A stretch of DNA of 64,000 nucleotides from Gammaproteobacteria bacterium (lineage in GTDB: Bacteria > Pseudomonadota > Gammaproteobacteria > Pseudomonadales > Pseudohongiellaceae), in contig JAQWOJ010000024.1 of the NCBI GenBank assembly GCA_029245905.1, positions 6,114 through 70,113 on the forward strand, read 5' to 3'. The notes beneath the pieces are model-generated. The model saw only the letters and a program-made list of their open reading frames with translations. It searched no databases and was not told the DNA's origin. Positions 20,866-40,960 of the stretch are shown piece by piece; position 1 is the stretch's first letter; every line of letters begins with the position of its first letter. Both the position numbers and the translations under genes were made by a program.

Positions 20866-20895
20866 CTAAATTAGTTTTATGATTAGGCTAAAAAT

Positions 20896-23025: not shown

Positions 23026-23188
23026 CCACCCCGAGGCGGAAATTTTTCTTGTCATAGTGAGAGCAGATCAGAGCCATTGACGTTAGCTAAAACTCCTGAT
23101 CATGCAGTGTTAATAATAACTAAAAGGTGCTGATCCAAGATCAAAGCAGACAGCGCCTATACCGCAAAGAAAATAGCAAGGTTATAAA

Positions 23189-23599
23189 ATGAGCGAAGAA
23201 GCTGAAGAACATGTAGAAACCGAATCCTCAGATGGTCTTGGGAAAATTGAATGGATAGATCTGACCGTGGAAGAAGGTTCGAGAGTTCGTGATTTCTATT
23301 GTTCCGTCGTCGGATGGTCTAGTAGCGAAGAGGATATGGGTAGTTATAGCGACTATAGTATTAATCTCCCTGGAACCAAAGACAGTATTGCGGGGATTTG
23401 TCATGCTCGGGGACCTAATGCAAATCTCCCCGCGCAATGGCTAATGTACGAGAGAGTTAAAAGCGTGTCTGAAAGCGTCGAAAAATGTGAGAGACTAGGA
23501 GGCTCAGTTATTGAAGGACCGCGACGCATGGGAAATCAGCGTTTCTGCGTAATCCAAGATCCTGCCGGGGCGGTACTCGCCTTACTTTCCGACTCGTAA
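23189..23599 (+). CDS. VOC (glyoxalase/bleomycin-resistance fold) family protein
   Basis: 136 aa. It has a beta-alpha-beta-beta-beta-type pattern (IEWIDLTV...FYCSVVGW...FCVIQDPAGAVLAL). Confidence 0.55.
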   Translation: MSEEAEEHVETESSDGLGKIEWIDLTVEEGSRVRDFYCSVVGWSSSEEDMGSYSDYSINLPGTKDSIAGICHARGPNANLPAQWLMYERVKSVSESVEKCERLGGSVIEGPRRMGNQRFCVIQDPAGAVLALLSDS

Positions 23600-23707
23600 A
23601 AAAATGAAGGGCATTTCCGCCAGTTACTAACACCCCCCCAGAAAACTTTTCAGTGTCCCAAACCTGTATGATACAGTTAAATTTGATGGAAAATTCAAGG
23701 CTATATT

Positions 23708-25027: not shown

Positions 25028-25063
25028 CCCTGCAGAATCGCAAATGTCAGAAAGGTAAAGCTA

Positions 25064-26119: not shown

Positions 26120-26226
26120 CATAGCTGTAAGCTTTCCTATCTATTAAGCATTATCATAAAGTTGGTGAAAAACAAGTTAATGACAACAACCACTTCAAAG
26201 TTCGATAGAAGAGATCCAAAAAAAGA

Positions 26227-27366
26227 ATGCGAAAAATTAAACTAGGAATGGTTGGAGGTGGCAAGGGCGCCTTTATTGGTGAAATACACCGCATGGCGGC
26301 AAGGCTAGATGATCGATATCAAATAGTGGCCGGCGCCCTTAGCAGTGATCCCAAAATTGCCGCAGCTTCTGCCGAAGAAAACAATATAGAAAAAGGCCGT
26401 AGTTATGATTCTTTTGAAATAATGGCGGAAATGGAAAAAAATCTAGCGAATGGAATAGACGCAGTCGCAATTGTCACCCCCAACCACCTGCATGCTTCAG
26501 TCGCGAAAGCATTTCTAAAAAAAAATATCCATGTTATCTGTGACAAACCAATAACTACAGAGCTCTCTGACGCTGAAGAACTAGAAATCCTAACCAACGA
26601 TTCTGGTTTAATTTTCGCAGTTACCTACAACTACAGCGGTTATCCTATGGTCCGCCAAGCAAAGGAAATGATTGCCGCCGGAAAGCTGGGCAACATACGT
26701 ATTATCCAATTGGAATATGCTCAGGATTGGTTGTCGGAGAGTATTGAGAAAACCGGTCAAAAACAAGCGACGTGGCGGACCAATCCGAAATATGCAGGCA
26801 AGGGAGGAGCAATTGGCGACATCGGTACTCATGCTTTTCATCTGGCGGAATTCATTACAGGGCTGAAAACTAGCGCCCTATTGGCGGACCTCGACTCCTT
26901 TGTGGCTGGCAGAACTTTAGACGATAACGCCAATATACTGATGCAGTACAACAACGGCGCGAAGGGCATGTTATGGGTGAGTCAAGTCGCGAGTGGAAAA
27001 GAAAATGGGCTACAAGTAAGGGTATACGGAGATAAAGCAGGGATAGAGTGGTCACAGGAAGAACCAAATCAATTAAGGTACAGCCCATTGGGGGATTCGA
27101 CGAATATAATTACCCGAGCGGGGTCCGCTGCAGGTCAACTTTCTAACCAGGCGTCTCGGTTACCAAGCGGTCATCCAGAAGGATTTATTGAAGGGTTTGC
27201 AAATATTTATCGGGATACCGCGGATTTAATTGTTGCGCATAACATAGGTCGTCAAATGAATTCTCTAGTCCCTAACATACAAGACGGCGTTCGGGGCATT
27301 CGCTTCATTGAAAAGGTGGTCGCTTCAAATCAGGCAGGGTCTATTTGGTTATCTCTAGAAGACTAG
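26227..27366 (+). CDS. Gfo/Idh/MocA-family NAD(P)-dependent oxidoreductase
   Basis: 379 aa. It has the N-terminal Rossmann segment KLGMVGGGKGAFIGEIH, then VICDKP and a C-terminal alpha/beta domain. Confidence 0.85.
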   Translation: MRKIKLGMVGGGKGAFIGEIHRMAARLDDRYQIVAGALSSDPKIAAASAEENNIEKGRSYDSFEIMAEMEKNLANGIDAVAIVTPNHLHASVAKAFLKKNIHVICDKPITTELSDAEELEILTNDSGLIFAVTYNYSGYPMVRQAKEMIAAGKLGNIRIIQLEYAQDWLSESIEKTGQKQATWRTNPKYAGKGGAIGDIGTHAFHLAEFITGLKTSALLADLDSFVAGRTLDDNANILMQYNNGAKGMLWVSQVASGKENGLQVRVYGDKAGIEWSQEEPNQLRYSPLGDSTNIITRAGSAAGQLSNQASRLPSGHPEGFIEGFANIYRDTADLIVAHNIGRQMNSLVPNIQDGVRGIRFIEKVVASNQAGSIWLSLED

Positions 27367-27432
27367 GATCCAGTCACTGTTACAACTCGGGACAATCAGC
27401 TAAACTAATTTTTCTGGAAAGGAGAACATTGA

Positions 27433-28275
27433 ATGATTACACATTCTGAATCGCGACGCCGTTTTTTGCGGCAATCTTCAGTTGCTGGCTTGTTAGGTTT
27501 ACTATCAGCTTTTTCTTCTCAAGCTCAAGGTCGAAAAATTAGCCGTATCGGCCTCCAGCTATATTCTCTGCGTAACGAAATGGCATCTGATTTTGAAGGT
27601 ACTTTAAGAAAGCTTGCAGAACTTGGCTACAAAGAAGTGCAGTTTGCTGGGTATCATGGAAAGTCGCCCAAGTATGTTAAAAAGTTACTAGACCAACTAG
27701 AGCTGACATCGCCTGCCTCACATGTATCGCTTAACCTCGTAAGAAATGAACTCGATAAACAAATCGATATTGCGAGAGAAGTGGGGCAGAGATACATAGT
27801 TGTTCCGTCTATACCGTCTGACGAGAGGACTCTCGATCATTACCAATTACATGCCGAAACGCTTAATGAGGCAGGAGAAAGGTGCAGAAAAGCAGGGTTA
27901 GCCATTGCTTACCATAACCATAGTTTCGAATTCGAATTGCAGAGCAACATGACTGGTTATGATCATTTGTTAGCCTCTACAGACCCAAGCCTTGTCTCGT
28001 TTGAGTTAGATCTTTATTGGGCAGTTAATGCCGGCGCCGACCCCATTACTCTCTTCAAAAAGCATCCTGGTCGATTTCCTTTGGTCCATGTCAAAGATCA
28101 AAATGCCTCGGGTGAAATGGTCGACGTTGGCAAGGGTGTTATAAATTTTTCCGAGATTTTTAAGCACTCTGACACAGCAGGTATTCATCACTACTTCGTG
28201 GAACACGATTATCCCGACGATGGCATCAATTCGATTGCCGACAGCTATAACGCATTAAGCAATATAAACTTCTAG
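27433..28275 (+). CDS. Tat-exported xylose-isomerase-like TIM-barrel protein
   Basis: 280 aa. It has a twin-arginine signal (SRRRFLRQSSVAGLLGL...AQG), then YHNHSFEF, VHVKD and VEHD. Confidence 0.8.
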   Translation: MITHSESRRRFLRQSSVAGLLGLLSAFSSQAQGRKISRIGLQLYSLRNEMASDFEGTLRKLAELGYKEVQFAGYHGKSPKYVKKLLDQLELTSPASHVSLNLVRNELDKQIDIAREVGQRYIVVPSIPSDERTLDHYQLHAETLNEAGERCRKAGLAIAYHNHSFEFELQSNMTGYDHLLASTDPSLVSFELDLYWAVNAGADPITLFKKHPGRFPLVHVKDQNASGEMVDVGKGVINFSEIFKHSDTAGIHHYFVEHDYPDDGINSIADSYNALSNINF

Positions 28276-28290
28276 CGAGGGCTTCTGTGA

Positions 28291-29052
28291 GTGGGTAAAT
28301 TCAGATTTTTAATTTTATTTGGAGTCTTTTCCAATGACTCTATTGCACAAAATGCCATCCTTGGAGATCCGCTGGAGCCAGTACCTTCAAAAGTAACTGG
28401 TGTTATCGATGGACAACCCCCATCTGACGCCATAATTCTTTTTGACGGATCCAATATGGACAGTTGGGAGCATGTCCGCTCTGGTGAGCCGTCGATGTGG
28501 GCCATAAAAGATGGGGTGCTAACGGTAAATAACGGAACGGGTACTTTAGTCAGCAAACAATCCTTTTCCGATATACAAATGCACATCGAGTGGAGACCAA
28601 ACTCCGAAATTGTAGGGTCGGGACAAAGCCGGGGTAACAGTGGCATTTTTATGCAGTCCTTATTTGAAATACAAATGCTGGACAGTTGGAATAATCCAAC
28701 ATACGTAAACGGCCAAGCCGGTTCGGTGTATCACCAATACCCCCCTCTAGTTAACGCTTCAAACCCTCCAGGCGAGTGGCAGACCTATGATCTGGTTTTT
28801 AAGGCACCGAGATACACACGGAAAGGCCAGTTGGAAAAACCGGCTTTCATCACGCTTTTTCACAATGGGGTTTTAGTGCTTGATCATGTAGAGGTTCTCG
28901 GCAGCACTTTTTCTAAAGTCCCTGAATACCGTGCTATATGCGAGCCCTATGAGATCGCTGAAATCCGAGATTGTAGTGGCGATCTTCCACTGCTCCTGCA
29001 AGACCACGGACAAGTCGTGTCTTTCCGCAATATTTGGCTGAGAGAACTTTAA
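28291..29052 (+). CDS. Secreted DUF1080 (3-keto-disaccharide-hydrolase-like, concanavalin fold) protein
   Basis: 253 aa with a GTG start and a signal peptide. It has LFDGSNMDSWE, NSGIFMQS..EIQMLD, PPGEWQTYDLVF and the C-terminal FRNIWLREL typical of DUF1080. Confidence 0.8.
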   Translation: MGKFRFLILFGVFSNDSIAQNAILGDPLEPVPSKVTGVIDGQPPSDAIILFDGSNMDSWEHVRSGEPSMWAIKDGVLTVNNGTGTLVSKQSFSDIQMHIEWRPNSEIVGSGQSRGNSGIFMQSLFEIQMLDSWNNPTYVNGQAGSVYHQYPPLVNASNPPGEWQTYDLVFKAPRYTRKGQLEKPAFITLFHNGVLVLDHVEVLGSTFSKVPEYRAICEPYEIAEIRDCSGDLPLLLQDHGQVVSFRNIWLREL

Positions 29053-30224: not shown

Positions 30225-30599
30225 ATGATTGTGTACGGTGTAGCACTACTTTCAGGATGCTTAATCTTAGGCATGATAATCGGTGAAGCACTTGGCGCAG
30301 CTCTCAACGTTGACGCCAATGTTGGTGGCGTCGGTATAGCCATGATATTTCTCGTGCTCGCCGGCAACTCCGAAAAATTCAGGTCACTGACTCAAGATGC
30401 CGCAGGCAGTGGTATTAAATTTTGGAGTGCAATGTATATCCCCATAGTTGTCGCCATGGCAGCGAGACAAGATGTCGCCGGCGCAACCGAGGGCGGCTTA
30501 CTTGCGATCGTTGCCGGAGTCGCCGCTGTCACGGTTAGCTTTGCCCTGGTACCGATACTCAGCAAAATAGGGAAAAAATCCGCGACGGAAGAGAACTAA
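30225..30599 (+). CDS. madL: Malonate transporter subunit MadL
   Basis: 124-aa, four-helix membrane protein. Its sequence and size match MadL, and it is immediately followed by a MadM-like gene. Confidence 0.8.
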   Translation: MIVYGVALLSGCLILGMIIGEALGAALNVDANVGGVGIAMIFLVLAGNSEKFRSLTQDAAGSGIKFWSAMYIPIVVAMAARQDVAGATEGGLLAIVAGVAAVTVSFALVPILSKIGKKSATEEN

Positions 30600-30614
30600 A
30601 AGGGAGGGGTCGTA

Positions 30615-31373
30615 ATGGACATCATCGAAACAGTTTTTGTTCGGAACAACTTAGTCGTTGCATTCGCAGTAGTCGGTGTAACGATTTGGATTTCCTATTT
30701 ACTTGCAGACAAATTGACCGCCGGCCGAATTCATGGGTCTGCAATAGCAATTGCTTTGGGCCTAATAGCAGCTTACTTTGGTGGTGTGGCAACTGGAGGT
30801 AGAACAGGCGTCGCCGATTTTGCCTTGCTCGGAGGCATTGGCCTTATGGGCGGCGGAATGATGCGTGACTTCGCTATTGTAGCTACCGCATTTGGGGTTC
30901 AATTAAGTGAGCTAAAAAAAGCAGGGCTTGCGGGAATCATCTCTATATTCGCAGGCGTAATCGTGTCTTTTGTCGTTGGGGCTGCCGTAGCAATTCTTTT
31001 TGGCTATACCGATGCTGCAGCCATTACCACCATCGGTTCTGGCGCGGTAACCTATATCGTAGGACCTGTAACCGGAGAAGCAATAGGGGCCTCTGATACA
31101 GTAATCACTCTGAGTGTCGCCGCGGGACTCGTTAAGTCCATATTAGTGATGATCGGAACGCCCTTAGTCGCAAAGTATATTGGTTTAAACAATCCGCAAT
31201 CTGCTATGGTTTTCGGGGGACTTATGGGAACAACAAGCGGTGTTGCGGCAGGATTGGCCGCTACAGATCCAAAGCTCGTTCCATATGGAGCGATGACAGC
31301 CACGTTCTATACTGGCGTCGGATGTTTGCTAGGTCCCTCCGTTTTGTTTTTCTTAGTAAGCACCATCTATTGA
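30615..31373 (+). CDS. madM: Malonate transporter subunit MadM
   Basis: 252-aa polytopic membrane protein, Gly/Ala-rich, with the canonical partner position after madL. Confidence 0.8.
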   Translation: MDIIETVFVRNNLVVAFAVVGVTIWISYLLADKLTAGRIHGSAIAIALGLIAAYFGGVATGGRTGVADFALLGGIGLMGGGMMRDFAIVATAFGVQLSELKKAGLAGIISIFAGVIVSFVVGAAVAILFGYTDAAAITTIGSGAVTYIVGPVTGEAIGASDTVITLSVAAGLVKSILVMIGTPLVAKYIGLNNPQSAMVFGGLMGTTSGVAAGLAATDPKLVPYGAMTATFYTGVGCLLGPSVLFFLVSTIY

Positions 31374-31415
31374 AGCACACCCAAATAAATAAGCGCCCAA
31401 CAAAGGATAACTTAA

Positions 31416-32906
31416 GTGACGATGCCTAAAACTCCCTTCCCATGCCTACAAAACAATAGCACTAGAACCGCTCTGGTAGAGGGAGAAAAAACCTACAATT
31501 ATAAACAAGTTAACGAACGCATTAATCAGTTTGCCGCGGGCCTGCTGCGACAAAAGTCAGACTTAGGAGAAGAGCGTATAGCATTTTTTATGCCTGCTAG
31601 CTTAGACTATGTAACAGCTATGCACGGAGTTTGGCGGGCTGGTGGTATTGCGGTCCCCCTCAACGTTGCGTCGGCAGTATCGGAGCTTGACCACTATTTA
31701 ACTTGCGCCAATGTGACTCGAATGGTGGCTGGAAATGAATACCACGATTCACTTCGTGAGCTATGTCACTCCTTAAATATAGATCTCGTATCTGTTGCTG
31801 ATGTTTTAATAGAAGAAAGCGTCACCTTCCCAGAAATTTCTCCCGATCGAAGAGCTTTAATGCTATTCACGTCCGGGACTACCAACAAACCAAAGGGTGT
31901 CGTAAGCACTCACAGAACGGTAGAAGCCCAAATAACCACCCTCATCGAAGCTTGGGAATGGTCAGAAGATGATGTTATCCCGTTGTTTCTACCCCTCCAC
32001 CATATCCACGGAATAATCAATATTTTAAGTTGTGGGCTATGGGCCGGAGCCACCGTACACTTATTCAGCAAGTTTGATATCCCGAGAATTTCAGAGCAAA
32101 TCATCGCGGGAACTTATAACGTTTTTATGGCAGTACCCACTATATACGTGAAACTGATTCAGTATTTTGAGGGTATAGAGAAAGGAGAAGTTGAGAAAAT
32201 ATGTGCCGGTTTCAATGCAATGCGACTCAATATCTCCGGCTCTGCCGCGTGCCCGGTCAAATTATTCAAACAGTGGAAGGAACTAACCGGACAAGTGCTC
32301 TTGGAAAGATACGGTATGACAGAGATCGGCATGGGTATTTCTAATCCTTACAATGGCGAGCGCAGAGCTGGAGCGGTGGGCCAGCCACTCCCAGGCGTCG
32401 ACTGTAAGCTTTTTGATGATGACGACAATCCTGTTGTTAGCGAAGCCGTGTCGGGGGAAATCCGCATAAAGGGAGACAATGTCTTCCTTGAGTACTGGGA
32501 CAATAAAGAAGCAACAAAAGAATCCTTCAAGGACGGTTGGTTTTGTACCGGAGACGTTGCGGTTGTAGAAGATGGATATTACCGAATCATGGGTCGGTCT
32601 TCGGTCGACATTATCAAGTCTGGGGGTTACAAATTGTCTGCACTAGAGATAGAGGGAGTCCTCCTAACTCATGATGCGATTGCGGAAGTTGCCGTAATCG
32701 GTGTTGAGGACGATACTTGGGGCGAAGCGGTAACAGCAGTCATTGCATTGAAGCAAGGAAAAAACCTAGACTACGATACGCTGAAGTCATGGTGTGATGG
32801 CAAGATGTCATCTTATAAAATACCCAAACACCTAAAAATCATTGAATCACTTCCAAGAAATGCGATGGGCAAGGTCACGAAACCTTCATTAAAGGAAATA
32901 ATCTAG
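31416..32906 (+). CDS. Acyl-CoA synthetase (ANL superfamily), MatB-like candidate malonyl-CoA synthetase
   Basis: 496 aa. It has the AMP-binding motifs FTSGTTNKPKGV, YGMTE and TGD plus the C-terminal lysine region (PRNAMGKVTK). The substrate is inferred only from the madLM context. The start may instead be the ATG at 31422. Confidence 0.7.
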   Translation: MTMPKTPFPCLQNNSTRTALVEGEKTYNYKQVNERINQFAAGLLRQKSDLGEERIAFFMPASLDYVTAMHGVWRAGGIAVPLNVASAVSELDHYLTCANVTRMVAGNEYHDSLRELCHSLNIDLVSVADVLIEESVTFPEISPDRRALMLFTSGTTNKPKGVVSTHRTVEAQITTLIEAWEWSEDDVIPLFLPLHHIHGIINILSCGLWAGATVHLFSKFDIPRISEQIIAGTYNVFMAVPTIYVKLIQYFEGIEKGEVEKICAGFNAMRLNISGSAACPVKLFKQWKELTGQVLLERYGMTEIGMGISNPYNGERRAGAVGQPLPGVDCKLFDDDDNPVVSEAVSGEIRIKGDNVFLEYWDNKEATKESFKDGWFCTGDVAVVEDGYYRIMGRSSVDIIKSGGYKLSALEIEGVLLTHDAIAEVAVIGVEDDTWGEAVTAVIALKQGKNLDYDTLKSWCDGKMSSYKIPKHLKIIESLPRNAMGKVTKPSLKEII

Positions 32907-33057
32907 GTTATTATCAAATCGAAGCCAATCATTCTTGCAGTCAAATTCGTGTTAAGTGAAGTCTATTTCTTCCTTATTAAAACTCAGTTAGTGCGTTCAA
33001 CCCCATTAAGCCTTAAAATACTCGCTTGAGATTATTAATAATCAGAAGCCAAATACA

Positions 33058-34689
33058 GTGAAAACAGAGTTCTTAGGTAAAAAACTTTCTGGTCCTTTTA
33101 CAATACCTTCCGGCATAGTTACCTGCTCTGCAAACATTATCCAACGATTCTTTTCGCTCGTCCCTGAAGTAGGTATTCTAACAACAAAGAGCATTGGCCC
33201 AGAGGCTCGTTTAGGCTATCGGGAACCCATTCTTACTCAATATGAACCCGGTTGTTTCGCCAATGCGGTAGGGCTTACCAACCCGGGTGCAGACCAAGCC
33301 GCTAAATTATTGGCGGACCTTATAATTCCTGAAGACCGTTTTTTACTAATCTCAATTTTCGGCGCAAGCGTCAGCGAGTACGTCGACGTCGCAAAGAAGC
33401 TTGCCCCTTATGGTGATGGCCTGGAGTTAAACCTTTCCTGTCCACATGCAAAAGGCCTCGGCATGGCGATGGGCCAAGACCCTGCGCTGGTTCAAGAAAT
33501 TGTCTCTGCGGTGAAGTCCGCTGTAGATATTCCAGTAGTCCCAAAGCTTACCCCTAATGTTCCAAATATAGGTGAAATTGCTAAAGCGGCAGCTGATGGT
33601 GGAGCAGATGCAATTTGCGCAATTAACACGATGGGACCCGAACAACATGAAGCTCATGGCCACCCGATATTAAGCAACCAAAAAGGAGGCTTATCAGGGA
33701 AAGGTATCTTGCCAAGAGCATTACAGTGCGTCCGAGACATTCGAAATTCCGTTGACTGCGCGATAATCGCTTGCGGGGGAATTAGTAGCGCTGCGGATGT
33801 GCGGAAATTTCAGGGGGCAGGTGCCTCGATAATCGGTGTCGGTTCTGCGCTCATTGGAATGACGACAGACCAGATAGCAGAATATTTCACCGCACTGTCT
33901 AACGACCTTGAAAATGCGGCAGACAATTGTGAAAAATTAGTTCGCTACGATATCGATATGAACTTTAAACCAGTGACTCTGGTTGAAAATATAAAAATAA
34001 CAGAAGATATTTGTATTTTAACTTTTGATTGTAAAATTCAAATTCAGCCAGGACAGTTTATTTTCTTGTGGATTCCTGGCCTGGGAGAAAAACCTTTTTC
34101 AGCTTTAGTCGATGATCCGTTTAGGCTCGCCATTATTAATCTTGGAGATTTTACCGAAAAGTTACTGCACCTGACTCCTGGCACAGAAGCCTACATAAGA
34201 GGGCCTCATGGAGTTCCGATTACGCCACCAGCCGACTCCAAAATAATTGCTGTTGCAGGTGGAACAGGCTTAGCGGCGGTTTACCAGCTCGCCAGAGATT
34301 TTGGAAATACGGACATTTTTTTTGGTGCACGCTCAGAAGATAGACTCTATTTTGTGGAAGAATCGGAGCGAGTAAGCAACCTACATATAGCGACAGATGA
34401 CGGCAGCCGAGGCGCAAGCGGCGTCATTACAGAATTACTCGACAAACATTTAAGTGAAATGTCTGATTATGATTTGAATTCACTCGTATTCTACAACTGC
34501 GGTCCAGCGCCAATGGTCCACGCGGCAGAAGCCATTCAAAAAAAATATTCGTCTCCAGACAGGATATTCAGTGCTATCGATTATCTAACAAAATGTGGTG
34601 TTGGTATTTGCGGCGCCTGCGACTCTCCAGATGGTCGTCGTTTATGCGTTGACGGACCATTTCTCGACGCAGCAGATACCAAGCCCTAA
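33058..34689 (+). CDS. Fusion of a class-1 DHOD/dihydropyrimidine-dehydrogenase-like FMN domain with a PyrK-like FAD/NAD and [2Fe-2S] domain
   Basis: 543 aa with a GTG start. The N-terminal half has GLTNPG, LELNLSCPHAKGLGMAMGQDPALV, KLTPNV, INT, GGLSG and CGGI. The C-terminal half has GEKPFS, AGGTGLA and CGVGICGAC...LCVDGPF. Confidence 0.75.
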   Translation: MKTEFLGKKLSGPFTIPSGIVTCSANIIQRFFSLVPEVGILTTKSIGPEARLGYREPILTQYEPGCFANAVGLTNPGADQAAKLLADLIIPEDRFLLISIFGASVSEYVDVAKKLAPYGDGLELNLSCPHAKGLGMAMGQDPALVQEIVSAVKSAVDIPVVPKLTPNVPNIGEIAKAAADGGADAICAINTMGPEQHEAHGHPILSNQKGGLSGKGILPRALQCVRDIRNSVDCAIIACGGISSAADVRKFQGAGASIIGVGSALIGMTTDQIAEYFTALSNDLENAADNCEKLVRYDIDMNFKPVTLVENIKITEDICILTFDCKIQIQPGQFIFLWIPGLGEKPFSALVDDPFRLAIINLGDFTEKLLHLTPGTEAYIRGPHGVPITPPADSKIIAVAGGTGLAAVYQLARDFGNTDIFFGARSEDRLYFVEESERVSNLHIATDDGSRGASGVITELLDKHLSEMSDYDLNSLVFYNCGPAPMVHAAEAIQKKYSSPDRIFSAIDYLTKCGVGICGACDSPDGRRLCVDGPFLDAADTKP

Positions 34690-37135: not shown

Positions 37136-39559
37136 ATGCCTGGAGGGTACATGAGAAAATCAGGCCTTTTTGCCGCGTCAGTCTTAAGCATCTCCCTTTT
37201 TGTTGCCGCCATCGTTGCAATCTCTGCTAATGCGCCCTCTAGTGACCTCAGTGAAGAGCAAAACACGCTAGCGACGACCCAAAATAATGCCGCAATTGTT
37301 GACCAATACTGTGTCGTCTGCCATAACCAAGCACTCAAAACTGGCGGACTTGAACTCGACGCCTATGACGTAAACAACGTAGCGGAGCACCCCGAAATAT
37401 GGGAGAAAGTTCTACGTAAACTGCGAGCTAATGCAATGCCGCCTACTGGCATGCCTAGACCAGATGAAAAGAGATTTGCTCAGTTTGAATCTGACATAGC
37501 AGAAGACTTAAACGCAGCCGCTCTTAAAAATCCAAACCCAGGGCGGACATTAACATTCAGTCGCATTAATCGAACCCAATATCAAAATGCCATCCGCGAC
37601 ATACTTGATCTCGATATAGACGTTTCGGAACTATTGCCTAAAGACGATGCGAGCTTTGGTTTTGACAATGTCAACTTAACCAATCTTTCTCCCACTCTAA
37701 TGGAGCGTTATCTAGCTGCCGCACAAAAAATCAGTCAACTAGCCATAGGCAGTCAGCTTAATAACCCGGCTACACACGTTGAACAAATTACTGCAAGCCT
37801 GACCCAGGAAGATCGACTCGAAGGTTTACCATTTGGCACTAGAGGTGGCGCCTCGTTCACCTATCAGTTCCCCCGCGACGGCGAGTATCGACTCGACGTG
37901 GTGCTAGCGAAAGATCGAAACGAGAATATTGAAGGCCTGACAGAAACTCACGAGATGGAGGTCGCTATAGATGGTGAGCGGGTTGAAGTCTTCGAAATTA
38001 CTCCAAATCGTTCGGAACGATTTGCAACTTTTTATTATTCTGATCAGGGGGCAGGCACAGGGTTGATCACAAATATCTCAGTACCCGCTGGCCCTCATGA
38101 AGTAACAGTCACTTTTTTACGAAAAAACTCCGCGTTAATAGAAAGCACGCGGCAGCCTTACATAGCGCACTTTAACCGCGATCGGACTCCAAGGCAGCAA
38201 CCGGCCGTGCTTTCTGTTTCTATAGCCGGTCCATTTGGGTCTGATGGAATTTCAAAAACCCCGAGCCGAGATCGCATATTTATCTGCGAGCCTAACGAGT
38301 CGATAGGCGCCGAGGCCTGCGCCAATTCTATTTTGTCCTCGCTAGCACGAAGAGCTTTCCGAAGACCGGTGAGTGATGAGGATTTAACTAGACCGCTCAC
38401 TTTTTTCAATCAAGTGTATAGCAAATCGGGTTTTGAGGCAGGAATTGAGATGGCAATACGGGCGATTTTAGTTAGCCCAGAATTCCTCTTTCGCATCGAG
38501 CAGGACCCACCAGATTTTGCGTCAGGGTCTGTTTACGCTCTAAACGATATAGAACTAGCTTCTCGCCTATCTTCCTTCTTGTGGAGCACGGTTCCTGACG
38601 ATGAATTGATGAATCTCGCGATTAATGAAAAACTTAGTGATTCTGACGTCCTAGGGGAACAAGTTGAACGAATGCTGGCAAGCCCAAAAGCAAAGTCGTT
38701 AGCTACAGACTTTGCAAACCAGTGGTTATATTTGCGCAATTTAGACGGCGCCGAGCCCAACTCAAGACTATTCCCAAATTTCGATGATAATCTTCGACAG
38801 TCCATGCGCCAAGAAACCGAACTACTTTTTAGTAATATAATTTCTGAAGATCGCAACGTTCTGGAGTTATTAAGCGCTGATTACACCTTCCTGAACGAGC
38901 GGTTAGCGAAACACTATAATATCCCTCATGTCTATGGAGATCACTTTCGCAAAGTAACTCTTCCAGAAGATAGCCCCCGCTCGGGCCTGTTAGGGCACGG
39001 CAGTATCCTTACCGTTACATCCTATGCCAATCGAACATCGCCCGTAATGCGCGGCAAATGGGTGCTAGATAATATCCTTGGAATTCCACCACCCCCGCCA
39101 CCGGACGATGTGCCGGCATTGCCTGAAAATCAATCCGAAGTTAAGATTTTAACCATGCGAGAAAGGATGGCGAAGCATCGCGCAAATCCGGCTTGCGCTC
39201 AATGTCATGAGATCATGGACCCTATAGGATTAGTATTCGAGAATTTCAATGCGATTGGCCAGATACGCACAGTTAACAGTGATCAGCCCACTATCGACAC
39301 CAAGGGTAACTTGCCTGGCGGCGAGCCATTATATGGTGTGAGTGGCTTGCGCAAGGATTTACTAAACAACCCCGATGCTTTTGTCGGCACGATGAGCGAA
39401 AAGCTGATGACGTATGCGCTTGGTCGTGGCTTGGAGTATTATGACGCACCTGCCATACGCCAGGTGGTCAAGCAGGCAGCTACTCAAGAATTTAGATTTA
39501 GCTCATTAGTAACCGCCATAGTCAACAGTACTCCCTTTCAGATGAGGAGAACATTATGA
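37136..39559 (+). CDS. Large secreted multi-domain protein of the DUF1587/DUF1592/DUF1595/DUF1588/DUF1585 type with two CxxCH motifs
   Basis: 807 aa with a signal or anchor. It has CVVCHN near the N-terminus and CAQCHEIMDPIG near the C-terminus. The internal segments (FLWSTVPDDEL, FANQWLYLRNL, SPVMRGKWVLDNILG) are typical of this planctomycete-type family. Confidence 0.75.
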   Translation: MPGGYMRKSGLFAASVLSISLFVAAIVAISANAPSSDLSEEQNTLATTQNNAAIVDQYCVVCHNQALKTGGLELDAYDVNNVAEHPEIWEKVLRKLRANAMPPTGMPRPDEKRFAQFESDIAEDLNAAALKNPNPGRTLTFSRINRTQYQNAIRDILDLDIDVSELLPKDDASFGFDNVNLTNLSPTLMERYLAAAQKISQLAIGSQLNNPATHVEQITASLTQEDRLEGLPFGTRGGASFTYQFPRDGEYRLDVVLAKDRNENIEGLTETHEMEVAIDGERVEVFEITPNRSERFATFYYSDQGAGTGLITNISVPAGPHEVTVTFLRKNSALIESTRQPYIAHFNRDRTPRQQPAVLSVSIAGPFGSDGISKTPSRDRIFICEPNESIGAEACANSILSSLARRAFRRPVSDEDLTRPLTFFNQVYSKSGFEAGIEMAIRAILVSPEFLFRIEQDPPDFASGSVYALNDIELASRLSSFLWSTVPDDELMNLAINEKLSDSDVLGEQVERMLASPKAKSLATDFANQWLYLRNLDGAEPNSRLFPNFDDNLRQSMRQETELLFSNIISEDRNVLELLSADYTFLNERLAKHYNIPHVYGDHFRKVTLPEDSPRSGLLGHGSILTVTSYANRTSPVMRGKWVLDNILGIPPPPPPDDVPALPENQSEVKILTMRERMAKHRANPACAQCHEIMDPIGLVFENFNAIGQIRTVNSDQPTIDTKGNLPGGEPLYGVSGLRKDLLNNPDAFVGTMSEKLMTYALGRGLEYYDAPAIRQVVKQAATQEFRFSSLVTAIVNSTPFQMRRTL

Positions 39560-40896
39560 TAATTACAAAGAAAGCGCTACCTCGCCGCAGCTTTTTGAGA
39601 GGGCTCGGCGCCGCGGTCGCTATGCCAATGTTAGACGCTATGGTGCCAGCTCTAGCTCAATCAGGTGCTGACTCGCAACCAACCCGTCGACTTGGTTACT
39701 TCTATATTCCCATGGGAATGAATCCAACCCCTTGGGTACCTGATTCAGTTGGCAACATGATTGAGCTATCACCATCTTTATCGTCGCTTGCCCCATTTCT
39801 AGAATCACTTAATGTAATATCTAATCTAGAAATCCGTAACGCTTATACAACCGGCAATCATGCTTCTTCCAATTGCGCTTTCTTAAGCTGCGCTAAAGCT
39901 TTGCGAACGGAAGGAAGCGACTACTATCTTGGAACGACTGTAGACCAAATTGCCGCACAAGCGATCGGTGGAGGCACACCAATTCCTTCACTTGAGCTAG
40001 GTGCAGATTTAATTTCTTTGGTAGGTAATTGTGATAATGGCTACGCGTGCGTTTACCAAAATAGTCTATCTTGGTCATCGGCTACATCCCCATTGCCCAT
40101 AGAAGGCGATCCGCGAATATTATTTGAGCGCTTATTTGGAGATGGCGGGACGCCCGAACAACGCAAGGCAGAATTAGATAAAAATGCTAGTCTTCTCGAT
40201 TGGGTGATGGACGATATCGAACGCTATCAAAACAAATTAGGCCCTGCCGATATGGTTAAAGTCGACGAATATCTAACCACCGTGCGCGAAGTGGAACGCC
40301 GGGTACAGCTTGCCCAAAAACAAACCGACTCCTCACCTCTGCCCGAGCTTTCCCGTCCTACCAGTGTTCCCGAAGACTGGGAAGATCATGTTAAACTTAT
40401 GATCGATCTTCAAACCTTAGCGTTACAAGCGGACTTAACTCGAGTCGTCTCATTTCAACTAGCCAGAGAGGCAAGCACTAGAAGTTATCCACAAATCGGG
40501 GTCAACGAGCCTCATCATCCTGTCTCCCACCATGCCAATGACCCCGTTCAATTAGAGAAATTGGCCAAAATAAATAAGTATCATGTCTCATTTTTTGCGT
40601 ACCTCTTAGAGAAACTTGATTCAGTAGAGGAAGGTAACGGCACACTGCTTGACAACACAACCTATTTGATGGGAAGCGGTATGGGAAACCCTGATGTTCA
40701 CAATCATTCAAATTTGCCTATCGTAGTAGCCAGCGGTAAAAATACCGGTATTTATGGTGGCCGGCACCTAAGCTTCAAAGAGCAACAACCATTAGCCAAT
40801 TTACATCTTAGTTTATTGGACAGCATGGGCGTTCACCTTGAGAATTTTGCGGATAATTCTGGCAGAATGGATGAGTTGTTCCATCGAACTGCTTAA
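39556..40896 (+). CDS. Tat-exported DUF1552-family protein
   Basis: 446 aa. Its start overlaps the upstream stop (ATGA). It has the twin-arginine signal PRRSFLRGLGAAVAM and His-rich segments (HHPVSHHAND, NPDVHNHSNLP). Confidence 0.75.
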   Translation: MIITKKALPRRSFLRGLGAAVAMPMLDAMVPALAQSGADSQPTRRLGYFYIPMGMNPTPWVPDSVGNMIELSPSLSSLAPFLESLNVISNLEIRNAYTTGNHASSNCAFLSCAKALRTEGSDYYLGTTVDQIAAQAIGGGTPIPSLELGADLISLVGNCDNGYACVYQNSLSWSSATSPLPIEGDPRILFERLFGDGGTPEQRKAELDKNASLLDWVMDDIERYQNKLGPADMVKVDEYLTTVREVERRVQLAQKQTDSSPLPELSRPTSVPEDWEDHVKLMIDLQTLALQADLTRVVSFQLAREASTRSYPQIGVNEPHHPVSHHANDPVQLEKLAKINKYHVSFFAYLLEKLDSVEEGNGTLLDNTTYLMGSGMGNPDVHNHSNLPIVVASGKNTGIYGGRHLSFKEQQPLANLHLSLLDSMGVHLENFADNSGRMDELFHRTA

Positions 40897-40960
40897 TAAT
40901 TTGTCTAAAGAAATTATGATACAAGCACACTTAAAACCAATTAAAAACAAACGGGTCAAA

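What the first reader, a model, noticed from the sequence alone, without database searches (positions are those of the whole stretch)
33058..34689. Single-chain fusion of a dihydropyrimidine-dehydrogenase-like FMN barrel with a PyrK-like FAD/[2Fe-2S] reductase, beside the malonate uptake and activation genes
Seen in sequence:
- The N-terminal half carries LELNLSCPHAKGLGMAMGQDPALV, KLTPNV, GGADAICAINT and GGLSG.
- The C-terminal half carries a ferredoxin-reductase-type FAD/NAD module (GEKPFS, AGGTGLA) and the PyrK cluster motif CGVGICGAC...LCVDGPF.

Established knowledge:
- Class 1B DHOD is a PyrD/PyrK heterotetramer whose catalytic loop, as I recall, reads SCPN.
- The SCPH...GQDP.LV...KLTPNV string is what I recall from the FMN domain of dihydropyrimidine dehydrogenase and PreA.
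- Proteobacteria normally make orotate with a membrane class 2 DHOD.

Inference: this is probably not the housekeeping pyrD. It may be a self-sufficient NAD(P)H-linked dihydrouracil/dihydrothymine or dihydroorotate-like oxidoreductase. Reductive pyrimidine catabolism ends in beta-alanine and malonate semialdehyde, so the adjacency to madL-madM and the MatB-like gene could be functional. No dihydropyrimidinase or ureidopropionase gene is in the window, so that link is speculative.
Basis: partly seen in the sequence, partly recalled or inferred. Interest (0 to 1): 0.65.

Follow-up and report, generated by a model that had tools for sequence, protein, structure and literature searches.

The report
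Single-chain dihydroorotate dehydrogenase replacing class 2 pyrD
This gene most likely encodes the cell's ordinary pyrimidine-building enzyme (dihydroorotate dehydrogenase) in an unusual one-piece, NAD-linked form that in related marine bacteria has physically overwritten the usual membrane-type gene; it is probably not a pyrimidine-degrading enzyme tied to the neighbouring malonate genes.

Summary
Window 33058..34689 (+) encodes a 543-aa fusion of a DHOD/DPD-type FMN barrel and a PyrK-type FAD/NAD/[2Fe-2S] module, and every quoted motif is present.

The catabolic, malonate-linked reading does not hold.
- The orotate-binding loop NAVGLTNPG is DHOD-type, whereas DPD/PreA have NIE[LQ]IS. Only the SCPH His is DPD-like, and it is a trait of the whole fused family.
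- The family forms its own clade (bootstrap 76), apart from canonical class 1B (90) and DPD/PreA (100).
- Eight of 11 non-gammaproteobacterial relatives examined (44-57% identical where measured) are fused to dihydroorotase or lie beside pyrC, pyrE or pyrF.
- In Oceanicoccus the fused gene fills the conserved NAD-GDH - pyrD - rmf - rlmL slot that holds class 2 pyrD in Aeromonas and 18 metagenomic loci. In one Spongiibacteraceae MAG it sits inside a broken class 2 pyrD, with 5' and 3' relics on either side.
- Linkage to madL-madM-acyl-CoA synthetase is confined to Pseudohongiellaceae-like loci, and the gene has its own conserved -10-like element.

Best reading: a self-sufficient NAD(P)-linked DHOD serving as the housekeeping pyrD. 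Two things remain untested: enzyme activity, and whether this genome lacks a class 2 pyrD.

The parts
32990..32997 (+). Conserved AGTGCGTT element in the spacer upstream of the fused gene. It may be a -35 region or an operator; its role is unknown.
   Evidence: At least 80% conserved in the alignment of the spacers from mad-linked loci. The motif GTGCG[TC]T-N10-24-TAWAAT is found in 20 of 39 mad-linked and 5 of 41 other loci. Coordinates.
33014..33019 (+). -10-like hexamer TAAAAT, 44 nt upstream of the GTG start. Proposed as the fused gene's own promoter.
   Evidence: A TAWAAT hexamer lies 37-81 nt upstream of the start (mostly 37-68) in 31 of the 41 loci without mad genes, across several families. 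It is also conserved in the mad-linked spacers. The consensus scan reports an overlapping promoter-like site at 33013-33042. No transcript data.
33058..34689 (+). Complete ORF: 543-aa single-chain PyrD-like/PyrK-like protein, with GTG start and the stop codon included.
   Evidence: More than 120 clusters of 73-97% identical full-length homologues. AlphaFold2 model with mean pLDDT 94.4 and pTM 0.92.
33061..33855 (+). N-terminal FMN-binding TIM barrel (DHO_dh domain, aa 2-266).
   Evidence: Pfam PF01180 2e-50. NCBIfam pyrD_sub1_fam 232.6 bits against PreA 113.9 bits. Foldseek top hit is the Lactococcus DHOD B PyrD chain, E 1.7e-23.
33187..33189 (+). Lys44, equivalent to Lys48 of Lactococcus PyrDb and Lys43 of class 1A (binds FMN and orotate).
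   Evidence: Alignments. At least 90% conserved in the family. The role of Lys43 is taken from PMC12060061.
33262..33288 (+). NAVGLTNPG loop (aa 69-77). This is the DHOD-type N-x-x-G-L-x-N-x-G substrate loop, whose counterpart Met69-Gly70-Leu71 contacts orotate in class 1A.
   Evidence: All DHOD references of classes 1A, 1B and 2 have this pattern, and all four DPD/PreA references have NIE[LQ]IS instead. N69 and N75 are invariant in the family. 92 of 105 family representatives keep the pattern. Contacts are described in PMC12060061.
33421..33492 (+). Catalytic loop LELNLSCPHAKGLGMAMGQDPALV (aa 122-145). It contains Asn125, the catalytic Cys128 (nt 33439-33441) and His130 (nt 33445-33447) where characterised DHODs have Asn.
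   Evidence: C128 is invariant; N125 and H130 are at least 90% conserved. SCPH occurs in 73 of 105 representatives and 119 of 120 close homologues. The loop has DHOD B length and lacks the 2-3-residue DPD/PreA insertion. Residues 132-134 are the only internal low-confidence stretch in the model, which fits a mobile loop.
33544..33561 (+). KLTPNV (aa 163-168). Lys163 is equivalent to Lys170 of PyrDb and Lys164 of class 1A (FMN site).
   Evidence: K163 is invariant; alignment.
33598..33630 (+). GGADAICAINT (aa 181-191). Asn190 and Thr191 are the pyrimidine-ring ligands, equivalent to Asn197/Thr198 of PyrDb.
   Evidence: N190 is invariant and T191 at least 90% conserved; alignment.
33685..33699 (+). 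GGLSG (aa 210-214), the motif that binds the FMN phosphate in this fold.
   Evidence: G210, G211, S213 and G214 are at least 90% conserved. The motif is aligned in all references.
33856..33969 (+). Helical linker between the barrel and the reductase module (aa 267-304).
   Evidence: Model helices at 270-286 and 290-294, with high pLDDT throughout. Lies between the Pfam/NCBIfam domain boundaries.
33970..34668 (+). C-terminal PyrK-like electron-transfer module (aa 305-537): FAD-binding beta-barrel, NAD(P)-binding Rossmann fold and a [2Fe-2S] tail.
   Evidence: NCBIfam 'DHOD electron transfer subunit' 169 bits, with the next family at 79 bits. PDB matches: NfnA-type PyrK homologue 4ylf at 75 bits and Lactococcus PyrK 1ep1_B at 65 bits.
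34084..34101 (+). GEKPFS (aa 343-348), the FAD-binding R-x-[YF]-S-type motif. It aligns with RRPIS of PyrK.
   Evidence: Alignment. E344 and P346 are at least 90% conserved.
34255..34275 (+). AGGTGLA (aa 400-406), the NAD(P)-binding glycine motif. It aligns with GGGIGVP of PyrK.
   Evidence: Alignment. G401, G402 and G404 are at least 90% conserved.
34594..34662 (+). [2Fe-2S] ligand motif CGVGICGAC-x8-CVDGPF, with Cys513, Cys518, Cys521 and Cys530.
   Evidence: Aligns with the CGIGACYAC...C motif of Lactococcus PyrK. C513 and C518 are invariant; C521 and C530 are at least 90% conserved. The 4-Cys pattern is present in 100 of 105 representatives.
30225..32906 (+). Upstream neighbours madL (30225-30599), madM (30615-31373) and an acyl-CoA synthetase (31416-32906). 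They are adjacent but judged not part of the functional unit.
   Evidence: Identities. The madL-madM-ACS-fusion order is seen in 37-39 of 80 loci, all Pseudohongiellaceae-like. It is absent in Halieaceae, Oceanicoccus/Spongiibacteraceae and Porticoccus/SAR92 loci, and in four close relatives with full flanks (L029, L035, L049, L050). The spacer is 151 bp here and at least 106 bp everywhere.

Best explanation
The gene most likely encodes a self-sufficient, single-chain dihydroorotate dehydrogenase of the class 1B type, acting in de novo UMP synthesis as the organism's functional pyrD.

Proposed mechanism, inferred from conserved residues and from Lactococcus DHOD B:
1. Dihydroorotate binds over FMN in the N-terminal barrel. 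It is held by Lys44, Asn69, the backbone of the NAVGL loop, Asn125, His130, Asn190 and Thr191.
2. Cys128, on a mobile loop, abstracts the C5 proton, and hydride passes from C6 to FMN.
3. Electrons move one at a time through the [2Fe-2S] cluster (Cys513/518/521/530) to FAD in the fused PyrK-like module.
4. FAD then reduces NAD(P)+.

The gene belongs to an old, widespread clade of PyrD-to-PyrK fusions. Its lineage entered marine Gammaproteobacteria and took over from the quinone-dependent class 2 pyrD. In Pseudohongiellaceae it now lies next to madL-madM-ACS, but it appears to have its own promoter.
For: Anatomy, shown directly:
- Both modules and all cofactor and catalytic motifs are present, and they are invariant or at least 90% conserved across 77 family members down to 29% identity.
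- The model is compact and confident, with pTM 0.92.

Substrate class:
- The N-x-x-G-L-x-N-x-G loop is found in every DHOD reference and in no DPD/PreA reference. Its counterpart contacts orotate in class 1A (PMC12060061).
- Profile scores strongly favour PyrD subfamily 1 (233 bits) over PreA (114 bits).

Family function, from gene fusions and gene neighbourhoods:
- P0122, 53.6% identical to the query, carries an N-terminal dihydroorotase domain (pyrC_multi 369 bits, cutoff 279). P0123 also carries one (188 bits, below the cutoff, but all its top hits are dihydroorotases). P0341 and P0346 align with P0122 over 94% of its length, which indicates the same extra domain.
- P0123, P0341 and P0346 are also divergent neighbours of a PyrE-PyrF fusion gene.
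- P0124 lies in a pyrE-pyrF-fusion operon.
- P0300 (Diapherotrites, 56.9% identical) lies in a fusion-pyrC-pyrF operon.
- P0396 (Daviesbacteria) lies beside pyrE and pyrF.
- P0318 (56.7% identical) lies beside pyrF and a pur cluster.
- In total, 8 of 11 non-gammaproteobacterial contexts are pyr-linked, and they bracket the gammaproteobacterial clade in the tree.

Displacement of class 2 pyrD:
- The block NAD-GDH - class 2 pyrD - rmf - rlmL is seen in Aeromonas and in 18 of 80 GDH-anchored metagenomic loci. E. coli keeps pyrD, rlmL and rmf together.
- In O. sagamiensis and three Oceanicoccus MAGs the fused gene fills that slot and no class 2 pyrD is there.
- In MAG contig L040 an intact fused gene lies between a 5' relic and a 3' relic of class 2 pyrD, followed by rmf and rlmL. 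The 5' relic covers residues 1 to about 67. The 3' relic covers residues 246-331, is 53% identical (E 3e-16) and has two in-frame stops.

Independent transcription: a conserved TAWAAT hexamer lies about 45 nt upstream of the start in most loci, with or without mad genes.
Against: - No member of this fused clade has been assayed, and I found no paper describing it.
- His130 replaces the Asn found in all characterised DHODs and matches pig DPD. UniRef's automatic name for the Oceanicoccus orthologue is 'dihydrouracil dehydrogenase (NAD...'.
- All curated NCBIfam cutoffs are missed (233 vs 270, 229 vs 269, 169 vs 224 bits).
- The barrel is not inside the canonical 1B clade.
- The slot and relic evidence comes from Oceanicoccus/Spongiibacteraceae, and the relic from a single 5.9-kb MAG contig. 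It does not come from Pseudohongiellaceae, and absence of a class 2 pyrD in the window's genome was not tested.
- The madL-madM-ACS-fusion block survives local rearrangements in 37-39 loci, and no terminator was predicted between ACS and the fusion. Some read-through co-transcription therefore cannot be excluded.
Confidence: 0.75

Rival explanations
1. It is a real dihydroorotate/orotate oxidoreductase but an auxiliary one. The genome would still have a class 2 pyrD elsewhere, and the soluble NAD-linked enzyme would serve special conditions. Examples are low oxygen or quinone limitation, or running in reverse as an orotate reductase for orotate use.
For: Absence of class 2 pyrD in this genome was never shown. 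In Pseudohongiellaceae the gene is not in the ancestral pyrD slot. Class 1B-type enzymes can run reductively, and a Klebsiella plasmid cluster of PyrK-like, DHOD-like, Zn-hydrolase, pyrC and MFS genes looks like such a catabolic module. An Fe-S flavoenzyme is costly in iron-poor seawater (my inference).
Against: In Oceanicoccus the gene fills the pyrD slot, and in L040 it interrupts class 2 pyrD, so the fused gene must supply DHOD there. The gammaproteobacterial copies form one clade at 65-80% identity to the query, a level typical of a gene under steady selection. No catabolic partner such as a ureidosuccinase-like hydrolase lies near it in any of the 80 loci.
Confidence: 0.15
2. One reading: an NAD(P)H-dependent dihydropyrimidine dehydrogenase (uracil/thymine reductase). 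Its pathway would end in malonate semialdehyde or malonate, and it would be functionally linked to madL-madM and the MatB-like synthetase.
For: The string SCPH...GQDPxLV...KLTPNV matches pig DPD. The pairwise PDB score to DPD (105 bits) is close to that for DHOD B (118 bits). UniRef's automatic name is 'dihydrouracil dehydrogenase (NAD...'. The gene order with the mad genes is stable in Pseudohongiellaceae-like loci.
Against: The loop that separates DHOD from DPD/PreA is DHOD-type here. The protein has no DPD/PreA loop insertion, no 4Fe-4S ferredoxin domain and no PreT/GltD-like partner. The PreA profile scores only 114 bits against a cutoff of 335. SCPH also occurs in relatives fused to dihydroorotase or beside pyrE/pyrF. 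No dihydropyrimidinase or beta-ureidopropionase is in the window or in any of the 80 loci. The mad linkage is lineage-specific, and the gene has its own promoter-like element.
Confidence: 0.05
3. In the Pseudohongiellaceae the enzyme has been recruited as an NADH-dependent ene-reductase for some other alpha,beta-unsaturated or cyclic-amide substrate, imported or activated by MadLM and the acyl-CoA synthetase.
For: DHOD-fold enzymes reduce other activated C=C bonds; class 1A uses fumarate, as recorded in PDB entry names. The synthetase is below the malonyl-CoA synthase cutoff, so its substrate is open. The four-gene block is retained.
Against: All pyrimidine-binding residues are invariant or nearly invariant and match the pyr-linked relatives. 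The Pseudohongiellaceae copies show no clade-specific active-site change relative to the Oceanicoccus or Luminiphilus copies in the motif table. The gene has an independent promoter-like element.
Confidence: 0.05

Closest known systems
Lactococcus lactis dihydroorotate dehydrogenase B (PyrDb + PyrK heterotetramer; PDB 1EP1/1EP2/1EP3, 5UE9; EC 1.3.1.14)
   Same: It has the same two modules and the same predicted cofactor chain, FMN - [2Fe-2S] - FAD - NAD. The catalytic Cys, Lys, three of the four ring-binding Asn, the NA[IV]GLxNPG loop, the loop length, the FAD and NAD motifs and the four cluster Cys all align. It is the best sequence and fold match in the PDB.
   Different: The query is one polypeptide in the order PyrD then PyrK, not two subunits. 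It is only about 30% identical. His replaces the Asn two residues after the catalytic Cys. It branches outside the canonical 1B clade and scores below the curated family cutoffs.
Dihydropyrimidine dehydrogenase (pig DPD, PDB 1GT8/1H7X) and bacterial PreA/PreT
   Same: The FMN barrel is homologous. The string LELNLSCPH...GQDPxLV...KLTPNV is nearly identical to pig DPD. The chemistry is the reverse reaction on a closely related ring.
   Different: DPD/PreA have NIE[LQ]IS where the query has NAVGLTNPG. They also carry a 2-3-residue insertion in the catalytic loop and a C-terminal 2x[4Fe-4S] domain, and they use a GltD-like NAD(P)H module instead of PyrK. They form a separate clade with bootstrap 100. 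Their genes sit with dihydropyrimidinase, which is not the case here.
Class 2 quinone-dependent DHOD (E. coli PyrD and relatives)
   Same: It is inferred to catalyse the same metabolic step. In Oceanicoccus and L040 the fused gene occupies the same chromosomal slot.
   Different: Class 2 is a membrane-associated single-domain enzyme with a Ser base, a quinone acceptor and no Fe-S or FAD module. It is only distantly related (24-25% identity to the query's barrel).
Reverse-order PyrK-to-PyrD fusions (e.g. P0243, P0247, P0261, P0265, P0268)
   Same: They are also single-chain proteins that join the two DHOD B modules.
   Different: The domain order is opposite. Most of their barrels group with canonical class 1B (P0249 does not), and P0243 reads SCPN. 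They represent an independent fusion event.
PyrK-like subunits of other enzymes (NfnA/SudB, AsrB, hydrogenase gamma subunits)
   Same: The C-terminal half shares their FAD/NAD/[2Fe-2S] fold, and the best single PDB match is the NfnA-type chain 4ylf.
   Different: At profile level the PyrK equivalog scores 169 bits, against 79 bits or less for those families. Here the module is fused to a DHOD barrel, not paired with a GltD-like or sulfite-reductase partner.

Membership tests
Class 1B dihydroorotate dehydrogenase (PyrD/PyrK type) | FMN-binding DHO_dh TIM barrel with a catalytic Cys on the active-site loop | tested here: met
   PF01180 2e-50. Cys128 aligns with Cys135 of PyrDb and is invariant in the family.
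Class 1B dihydroorotate dehydrogenase (PyrD/PyrK type) | Orotate-binding set: Lys, four conserved Asn and Ser/Thr, including the Asn two residues after the catalytic base | tested here: not met
   Lys44, Asn69, Asn125, Asn190 and Thr191 are present, but the fourth Asn is His130 (SCPH, not SCPN). The His is a trait of the fused clade, including members fused to PyrC.
Class 1B dihydroorotate dehydrogenase (PyrD/PyrK type) | N-x-x-G-[LF]-x-N-x-G substrate loop (equivalent to Met69-Gly70-Leu71) | tested here: met
   NAVGLTNPG. The pattern is present in all DHOD references and absent in all DPD/PreA references.
Class 1B dihydroorotate dehydrogenase (PyrD/PyrK type) | PyrK-type partner with FAD, NAD and a [2Fe-2S] cluster on four Cys | tested here: met
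   Present as the fused C-terminal module. All motifs align with 1EP1_B. PyrK equivalog E-value 1e-49.
Class 1B dihydroorotate dehydrogenase (PyrD/PyrK type) | Two separate subunits forming a heterotetramer | tested here: not met
   It is a single 543-aa chain, and the fusion is conserved in hundreds of clusters. The oligomeric state is unknown.
Class 1B dihydroorotate dehydrogenase (PyrD/PyrK type) | Score above curated NCBIfam cutoffs | tested here: not met
   TIGR01037 232.6 vs 270, NF005574 229.4 vs 269, and PyrK NF000796 169.2 vs 224.
Class 1B dihydroorotate dehydrogenase (PyrD/PyrK type) | Phylogenetic placement inside the clade of characterised 1B enzymes | tested here: not met
   The forward-fused clade (bootstrap 76) is separate from the canonical 1B clade (bootstrap 90). 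The branching order among fused, 1B and DPD/PreA is unresolved. No archaeal split PyrD or class 1S references were available.
Class 1B dihydroorotate dehydrogenase (PyrD/PyrK type) | Dihydroorotate:NAD+ oxidoreductase activity | not testable with these tools
   Inferred only, from fusions and operons with pyrC/pyrE/pyrF and from displacement of class 2 pyrD.
Dihydropyrimidine dehydrogenase / PreA | NIE[LQ]IS-type substrate loop and a 2-3-residue insertion in the catalytic loop | tested here: not met
   The query has NAVGLTNPG and a catalytic loop of DHOD B length.
Dihydropyrimidine dehydrogenase / PreA | C-terminal 2x[4Fe-4S] ferredoxin domain and a GltD/PreT-like NAD(P)H module | tested here: not met
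   No such domain is in the protein, and no PreT-like gene is in the window.
Dihydropyrimidine dehydrogenase / PreA | Score above the curated PreA cutoff, and membership of the DPD/PreA clade | tested here: not met
   NF006183 scores 113.9 against a cutoff of 335. The DPD/PreA clade (bootstrap 100) excludes the query.
Dihydropyrimidine dehydrogenase / PreA | His two residues after the catalytic Cys (SCPH, as in mammalian DPD) | tested here: met
   The query and pig DPD both have SCPH. E. coli and C. butyricum PreA have SCPQ.
Dihydropyrimidine dehydrogenase / PreA | Genomic association with dihydropyrimidinase and beta-ureidopropionase | tested here: not met
   Neither gene is in the window or in the 80 related loci. 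By contrast, C. butyricum preA lies beside hydA.
tRNA-dihydrouridine synthase (Dus), the name NCBI gives many homologues | Full-length match to the Dus catalytic domain | tested here: not met
   PF01207 matches only aa 94-187 (model positions 54-156 of 311) at 33 bits, against 172 bits for DHO_dh. The name appears to be an annotation artefact.

The most novel reading that the evidence does not exclude
The fused gene, with its own promoter, acts as a self-sufficient 'drop-in' DHOD cassette. On this reading it has spread between DPANN archaea, CPR bacteria, other bacteria and marine Gammaproteobacteria. It has overwritten the resident class 2 pyrD at its own locus more than once, switching pyrimidine synthesis from dependence on quinones and the respiratory chain to dependence on NAD. 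The barely decayed pyrD relics in L040 would then record a recent, independent replacement.
Probability: 0.2. Interest if true: 0.6.

Novelty: new variant of a known kind. Interest (0 to 1): 0.42.

Why it matters
If this is right, several abundant families of marine Gammaproteobacteria make pyrimidines with a soluble, NAD-linked Fe-S flavoenzyme. These families include Pseudohongiellaceae/OM182, Spongiibacteraceae, Halieaceae and Porticoccaceae/SAR92. Textbooks assign all Proteobacteria the membrane, quinone-linked enzyme instead.

- **Metabolic models.** This changes how metabolic reconstructions, auxotrophy predictions and iron or redox budgets should treat these organisms.
- **Annotation.** Public names for the family are wrong or inconsistent: 'tRNA-dihydrouridine synthase', 'DUF561 domain-containing protein' and 'dihydrouracil dehydrogenase'.
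- **Enzymology.** The clade gives a natural single-chain version of DHOD B for studying FMN - [2Fe-2S] - FAD electron transfer. It also offers a natural Asn-to-His active-site variant.
- **Evolution.** Contig L040 is a clear example of one enzyme type displacing another inside the resident gene.

Tried and rejected
1. **Class 2 pyrD in the window's genome: not answerable.**
   - The single genome-contig scan went on the fusion's own context.
   - No second DHOD-like ORF lies in any of the 80 loci or the window.
   - The seeds obtainable from the plasmid collection (E. coli, Aeromonas, Acinetobacter and others) are too distant to bring Pseudohongiellaceae proteins into a top-120 list.
   - I therefore left the last large homology search unused, because a negative result would mean nothing.
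2. **Fold comparison did not discriminate.** DHOD B, DPD and class 1A all match the barrel at E around 1e-20 to 1e-23. Model coordinates are not exposed, so distances between cofactor sites could not be measured.
3. **RNA elements.** No Rfam family anywhere in the window or in the leader, and no tRNAs.
4. **Literature.** No description of a PyrD-PyrK single-chain enzyme was found. The X1 and X2 clades of Barba et al. 2013 are PreA-like with other partners, so they are not this family.
5. **Antisense ORFs.** The apparent conserved 'neighbours' c1, c6, c15, c31, c41, c49 and c65 are antisense ORFs inside or overlapping the fused gene and were discarded.
6. **References that failed.** The Nonomuraea reference ORF could not be extracted cleanly and was dropped from the tree. 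No archaeal split PyrD or class 1S reference could be obtained.
7. **GDH-anchored metagenome scan.** It returned no close Oceanicoccus or Pseudohongiella relatives (55% identity at most). It therefore established the canonical class 2 layout but added no further fused-gene slots.
8. **Recent inter-family transfer into L040: not supported.** Its fused gene follows taxonomy, being 77% identical to the Oceanicoccus copies.

Full report
**1. The observation**

Window 33058..34689 (+) is one ORF of 543 aa with a GTG start.

- Pfam finds DHO_dh (aa 2-266, 2e-50), NAD_binding_1 (aa 399-491) and the DHOD B Fe-S domain (aa 512-540).
- The upstream genes are madL, madM and an acyl-CoA synthetase. The synthetase scores below the curated malonyl-CoA synthase cutoff.
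- I scanned all 47 window ORFs of 150 aa or more. None is a dihydropyrimidinase, beta-ureidopropionase, PreT, class 2 pyrD or malonyl-CoA decarboxylase.
- The window has no Rfam matches and no tRNAs.

**2. Anatomy**

Against curated profiles, the N-terminal half scores 233 bits on PyrD subfamily 1 and 229 bits on the DHOD 1B-type model, but only 114 bits on PreA. The C-terminal half scores 169 bits on the PyrK equivalog, and the next family reaches 79 bits. All of these scores are below the curated cutoffs.

Single-sequence comparison with the PDB is less clear-cut. Lactococcus DHOD B PyrD scores 118 bits and pig DPD 105 bits.

Residue-level alignment shows a mixture of features:

| Feature | Query | DHOD references | DPD/PreA references |
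|---|---|---|---|
| Substrate loop | NAVGLTNPG | N-x-x-G-[LF]-x-N-x-G (classes 1A, 1B and 2) | NIE[LQ]IS |
| Residue two after the catalytic base | His (SCPH) | Asn (SCPN; SSPN in class 2) | His (pig DPD, Thalassospira PreA) or Gln (E. coli and C. butyricum PreA) |
| Catalytic loop length | short | short | 2-3 residues longer |

In class 1A DHOD, orotate-type ligands hydrogen-bond to Lys43, Asn67, Met69-Gly70-Leu71, Asn127, Asn132 and Asn194 (PMC12060061). These correspond to the query's Lys44, Asn69, Val71-Gly72-Leu73, Asn125, His130 and Asn190.

The C-terminal half aligns with Lactococcus PyrK at the FAD motif, the NAD motif, ATDDGS and all four cluster cysteines.

Across 77 family members down to 29% identity, N69, N75, C128, K163, N190, C513 and C518 are invariant. 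K44, N125, H130, T191, C521 and C530 are at least 90% conserved.

**3. Structure**

AlphaFold2, run with that alignment, gives mean pLDDT 94.4 and pTM 0.92. That indicates one confident inter-domain arrangement. Apart from the last few C-terminal residues, the only low-confidence stretch is residues 132-134 on the catalytic loop.

Foldseek ranks the DHOD B PyrD chain first, closely followed by DPD and class 1A. The fold therefore does not decide the substrate.

**4. Distribution**

The fusion is not a one-off.

- More than 120 clusters of 73-97% identical proteins of about 543 aa exist in marine metagenomes and MAGs.
- In the reference-genome collection, 496 matched stretches were confirmed as relatives. 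The best 80 loci are Pseudohongiellaceae/OM182 (probably the window's family), Oceanicoccus/Spongiibacteraceae, Halieaceae and Porticoccus/SAR92.
- An exhaustive search of 50%-identity representatives found 385 hits at E <= 1e-30, many of them full-length PyrD-to-PyrK fusions, with identities down to 30%.
- Named members come from DPANN archaea (Diapherotrites, Woese-, Pace- and Nanoarchaeota), CPR bacteria (Daviesbacteria), KSB3 and large-genome bacteria.
- Public names are inconsistent: 'dihydroorotate dehydrogenase', 'tRNA-dihydrouridine synthase', 'DUF561' and, in UniRef for Oceanicoccus sagamiensis, 'dihydrouracil dehydrogenase (NAD...'.
- SCPH is a family trait. It occurs in 73 of 105 full-length representatives and 119 of 120 close homologues.

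**5. Phylogeny of the barrel**

I built a neighbour-joining tree from 290 columns and 122 sequences with 100 bootstraps, rooted on E. coli class 2 PyrD.

- The forward-fused proteins form one clade: 100 of 105 representatives, bootstrap 76. It includes the query.
- Canonical 1B forms another clade (bootstrap 90). It holds Lactococcus PyrDb, S. suis, Bacillus, Parabacteroides and most of the reverse-order fusions.
- DPD/PreA forms a third clade (bootstrap 100).
- The branching order among the three is unresolved (bootstraps 29-55).

The barrel is therefore neither inside canonical 1B nor inside DPD/PreA. I had no archaeal split PyrD or class 1S references.

**6. What the family does elsewhere**

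Eight 90%-identity clusters of 880-968 aa carry an extra N-terminal region, and a ninth (P0334, 740 aa) pairs an amidohydrolase domain with DHO_dh. I scanned two of these directly.

- In P0122 the extra region scores 369 bits on pyrC_multi (cutoff 279) and 472 bits on a dihydroorotase equivalog, against 234 bits for dihydropyrimidinase.
- In P0123 it scores 188 bits on pyrC_multi. That is below the cutoff, but all its top hits are dihydroorotases.
- The other six clusters are inferred from their length and from 94% coverage of P0122.

The genomic contexts of 11 non-gammaproteobacterial members were as follows.

| Member | Identity to query | Context |
|---|---|---|
| P0124 | 46% | pyrE-pyrF-fusion operon |
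| P0123, P0341, P0346 | 47-48% | PyrC fused on; divergent to a PyrE-PyrF fusion gene |
| P0300 (Diapherotrites) | 56.9% | fusion-pyrC-pyrF, overlapping genes |
| P0396 (Daviesbacteria) | 43.8% | pyrE and pyrF within 600 bp |
| P0318 (10-Mb bacterial genome) | 56.7% | followed by pyrF and a pur cluster |
| P0122 | 53.6% | PyrC fused on |
| P0127, P0132, P0145 | not computed | no pyr genes nearby |

Eight of the 11 are pyr-linked, and members with SCPH are among them. In a tree of full-length proteins, these pyr-linked members lie on both sides of the gammaproteobacterial clade. From this I infer that the ancestral and prevailing function of the clade is dihydroorotate oxidation in de novo UMP synthesis.

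**7. What it does in Gammaproteobacteria: the pyrD slot**

In cultured O. sagamiensis (CP019343.1) the fused gene lies between rlmL-rmf and DUF2835-NAD-GDH. The comparison loci are:

- E. coli keeps pyrD, rlmL and rmf within 11 kb.
- Aeromonas caviae has NAD-GDH - class 2 pyrD - zapC - rlmL - uup - rmf.
- In 18 of 80 metagenomic loci anchored on NAD-GDH, class 2 pyrD lies 81-1,561 bp downstream of GDH. In most of them rmf(-) and rlmL(+) follow.
- Four Oceanicoccus loci (L101, L054, L056, L057) have the fused gene in that interval and no class 2 pyrD.

Contig L040, from a Spongiibacteraceae MAG, is the most telling. Its layout is:

1. A 5' relic of class 2 pyrD at 2531-2683. It starts at the initiator Met and runs to AAGLDKN. 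In a 1.5-Mb local database (82 sequences), all six class 2 query sequences hit this region as their top match, at E = 3e-6 to 2e-3.
2. A TAAAAT hexamer at -45 from the fused gene's start.
3. An intact fused gene at 2752-4371.
4. A 3' relic of class 2 pyrD at 4362-4610. It covers residues 246-331 of 331, is 53% identical (E = 3e-16) and has two in-frame stops.
5. rmf(-), then rlmL(+).

The fused gene was therefore inserted into the resident class 2 pyrD and replaced its middle. That is tolerable only if the incoming gene supplies DHOD. No other locus, nor the window, contains a class 2-like fragment.

**8. The malonate neighbours**

- The order madL-madM-ACS-fusion occurs in 37-39 of the 80 loci. 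All of these are Pseudohongiellaceae-like, with 72% or more identity to the query.
- The order is missing in the other families. It is also missing in four close relatives with complete flanks (L029, L035, L049, L050).
- The ACS-to-fusion spacer is at least 106 bp, with a median around 155 bp, and is 151 bp here. It contains a conserved AGTGCGTT...TAaAAT element.
- A TAWAAT hexamer at a similar distance from the start (mostly 37-68 nt) also precedes the gene in most loci that lack mad genes.

The adjacency therefore looks like lineage-specific synteny around an independently promoted gene. Read-through transcription cannot be excluded, because no terminator was predicted after the synthetase gene.

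**9. Mechanism**

What is shown:
- The domain composition and the conserved catalytic and cofactor residues.
- A confident compact model.
- Linkage of the family to pyr genes.
- Displacement of class 2 pyrD in related lineages.

What is inferred:
- Dihydroorotate is oxidised at FMN, with Cys128 as the base.
- Electrons pass through the [2Fe-2S] cluster to FAD and then to NAD(P)+.
- The protein is the working pyrD of this organism.
- His130 is compatible with orotate binding.

**10. Comparison and novelty**

The protein works like DHOD B, but it fails several membership criteria for the characterised family. It is a single chain, it has His in place of Asn, it lies outside the canonical clade, and it scores below the curated cutoffs. 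It fails nearly all DPD/PreA criteria.

I found no paper describing this clade. I therefore rate it a new variant of a known kind: an under-recognised single-chain DHOD clade that has replaced class 2 pyrD in marine Gammaproteobacteria.

**11. Limits**

- Enzyme activity is untested.
- Absence of class 2 pyrD in the window's own genome is untested.
- The relic rests on one 5.9-kb MAG contig.
- The relics are surprisingly undecayed, given that L040's fused gene is only 77% identical to its nearest relatives. That leaves open whether displacement happened once or several times.

Noticed in passing
L040 2531-4610 (MAG Spongiibacteraceae, CBDUPD010000167.1): An intact fused DHOD gene lies between a 5' relic and a 3' relic of a class 2 pyrD, upstream of rmf and rlmL. 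The relics are much less decayed than expected if the replacement were as old as the divergence of the fused genes (77% to the nearest relatives).
   Followed up: partly
L095 1555-5594 (Klebsiella pneumoniae plasmid pKP062-1, NZ_CP089326.1): A plasmid cluster holds an MFS transporter, a PyrK-sized 'hypothetical' protein, a class 1B-like DHOD, a Zn-dependent hydrolase and pyrC. It looks like a possible orotate-catabolic (reductive) module. The same DHOD is found on dozens of Klebsiella plasmids.
   Followed up: no
P0243, P0247, P0249, P0261, P0265, P0268: Reverse-order PyrK-to-PyrD single-chain proteins of about 570-610 aa. Most of their barrels group with canonical class 1B (P0249 does not), and P0243 reads SCPN. 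They are an independent fusion of the same two modules in the opposite order.
   Followed up: partly
P0205/P0288: A 583-aa member of the fused family appears in the transcriptome of the eukaryote Diphylleia rotans (EukProt). It could be a real eukaryotic gene or contamination.
   Followed up: no
L083 2317-5946 (Logan SRR22388259 contig): Next to the PyrC-PyrD-PyrK triple fusion lies a 1,209-aa protein combining adenylosuccinate lyase, adenylosuccinate synthetase and a HAD hydrolase. This points to extensive fusion of nucleotide-synthesis genes in that (probably DPANN archaeal) genome.
   Followed up: no
window 30225-32906: madL and madM plus an acyl-CoA synthetase occur with no malonyl-CoA decarboxylase anywhere in the 64-kb window. 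The synthetase scores 357 bits against the malonyl-CoA synthase cutoff of 558, so both its substrate and the fate of the CoA ester are open.
   Followed up: partly
window 18721-29052: Two tandem PQQ-dependent quinohaemoprotein dehydrogenases (18721-20865 and 20896-23025) are followed by a sulfatase, two xylose-isomerase-like TIM-barrel proteins, a GFO/IDH/MocA oxidoreductase and a 3-keto-disaccharide hydrolase. This may be an oxidative (3-keto) sugar or glycoside utilisation cluster.
   Followed up: no
window 37136-42484: A Planctomycete-type DUF1592/1588/1585/1595/1587 protein (807 aa) and its DUF1552 partner (446 aa) are followed by a 548-aa ankyrin-repeat protein. The pair also recurs downstream of the fused gene in several related loci (clusters c44 and c45).
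   Followed up: no
window 32990-32997 and equivalent positions in related loci: A conserved AGTGCGTT element lies 16 nt upstream of the -10-like TAAAAT. It matches the -35 consensus poorly, so it may be an operator for an unknown regulator.
   Followed up: partly
public annotations of homologues: The same protein family is named 'tRNA-dihydrouridine synthase', 'DUF561 domain-containing protein', 'dihydroorotate dehydrogenase' and 'dihydrouracil dehydrogenase (NAD...' by different sources. The Dus name rests on a partial 33-bit Pfam overlap.
   Followed up: yes
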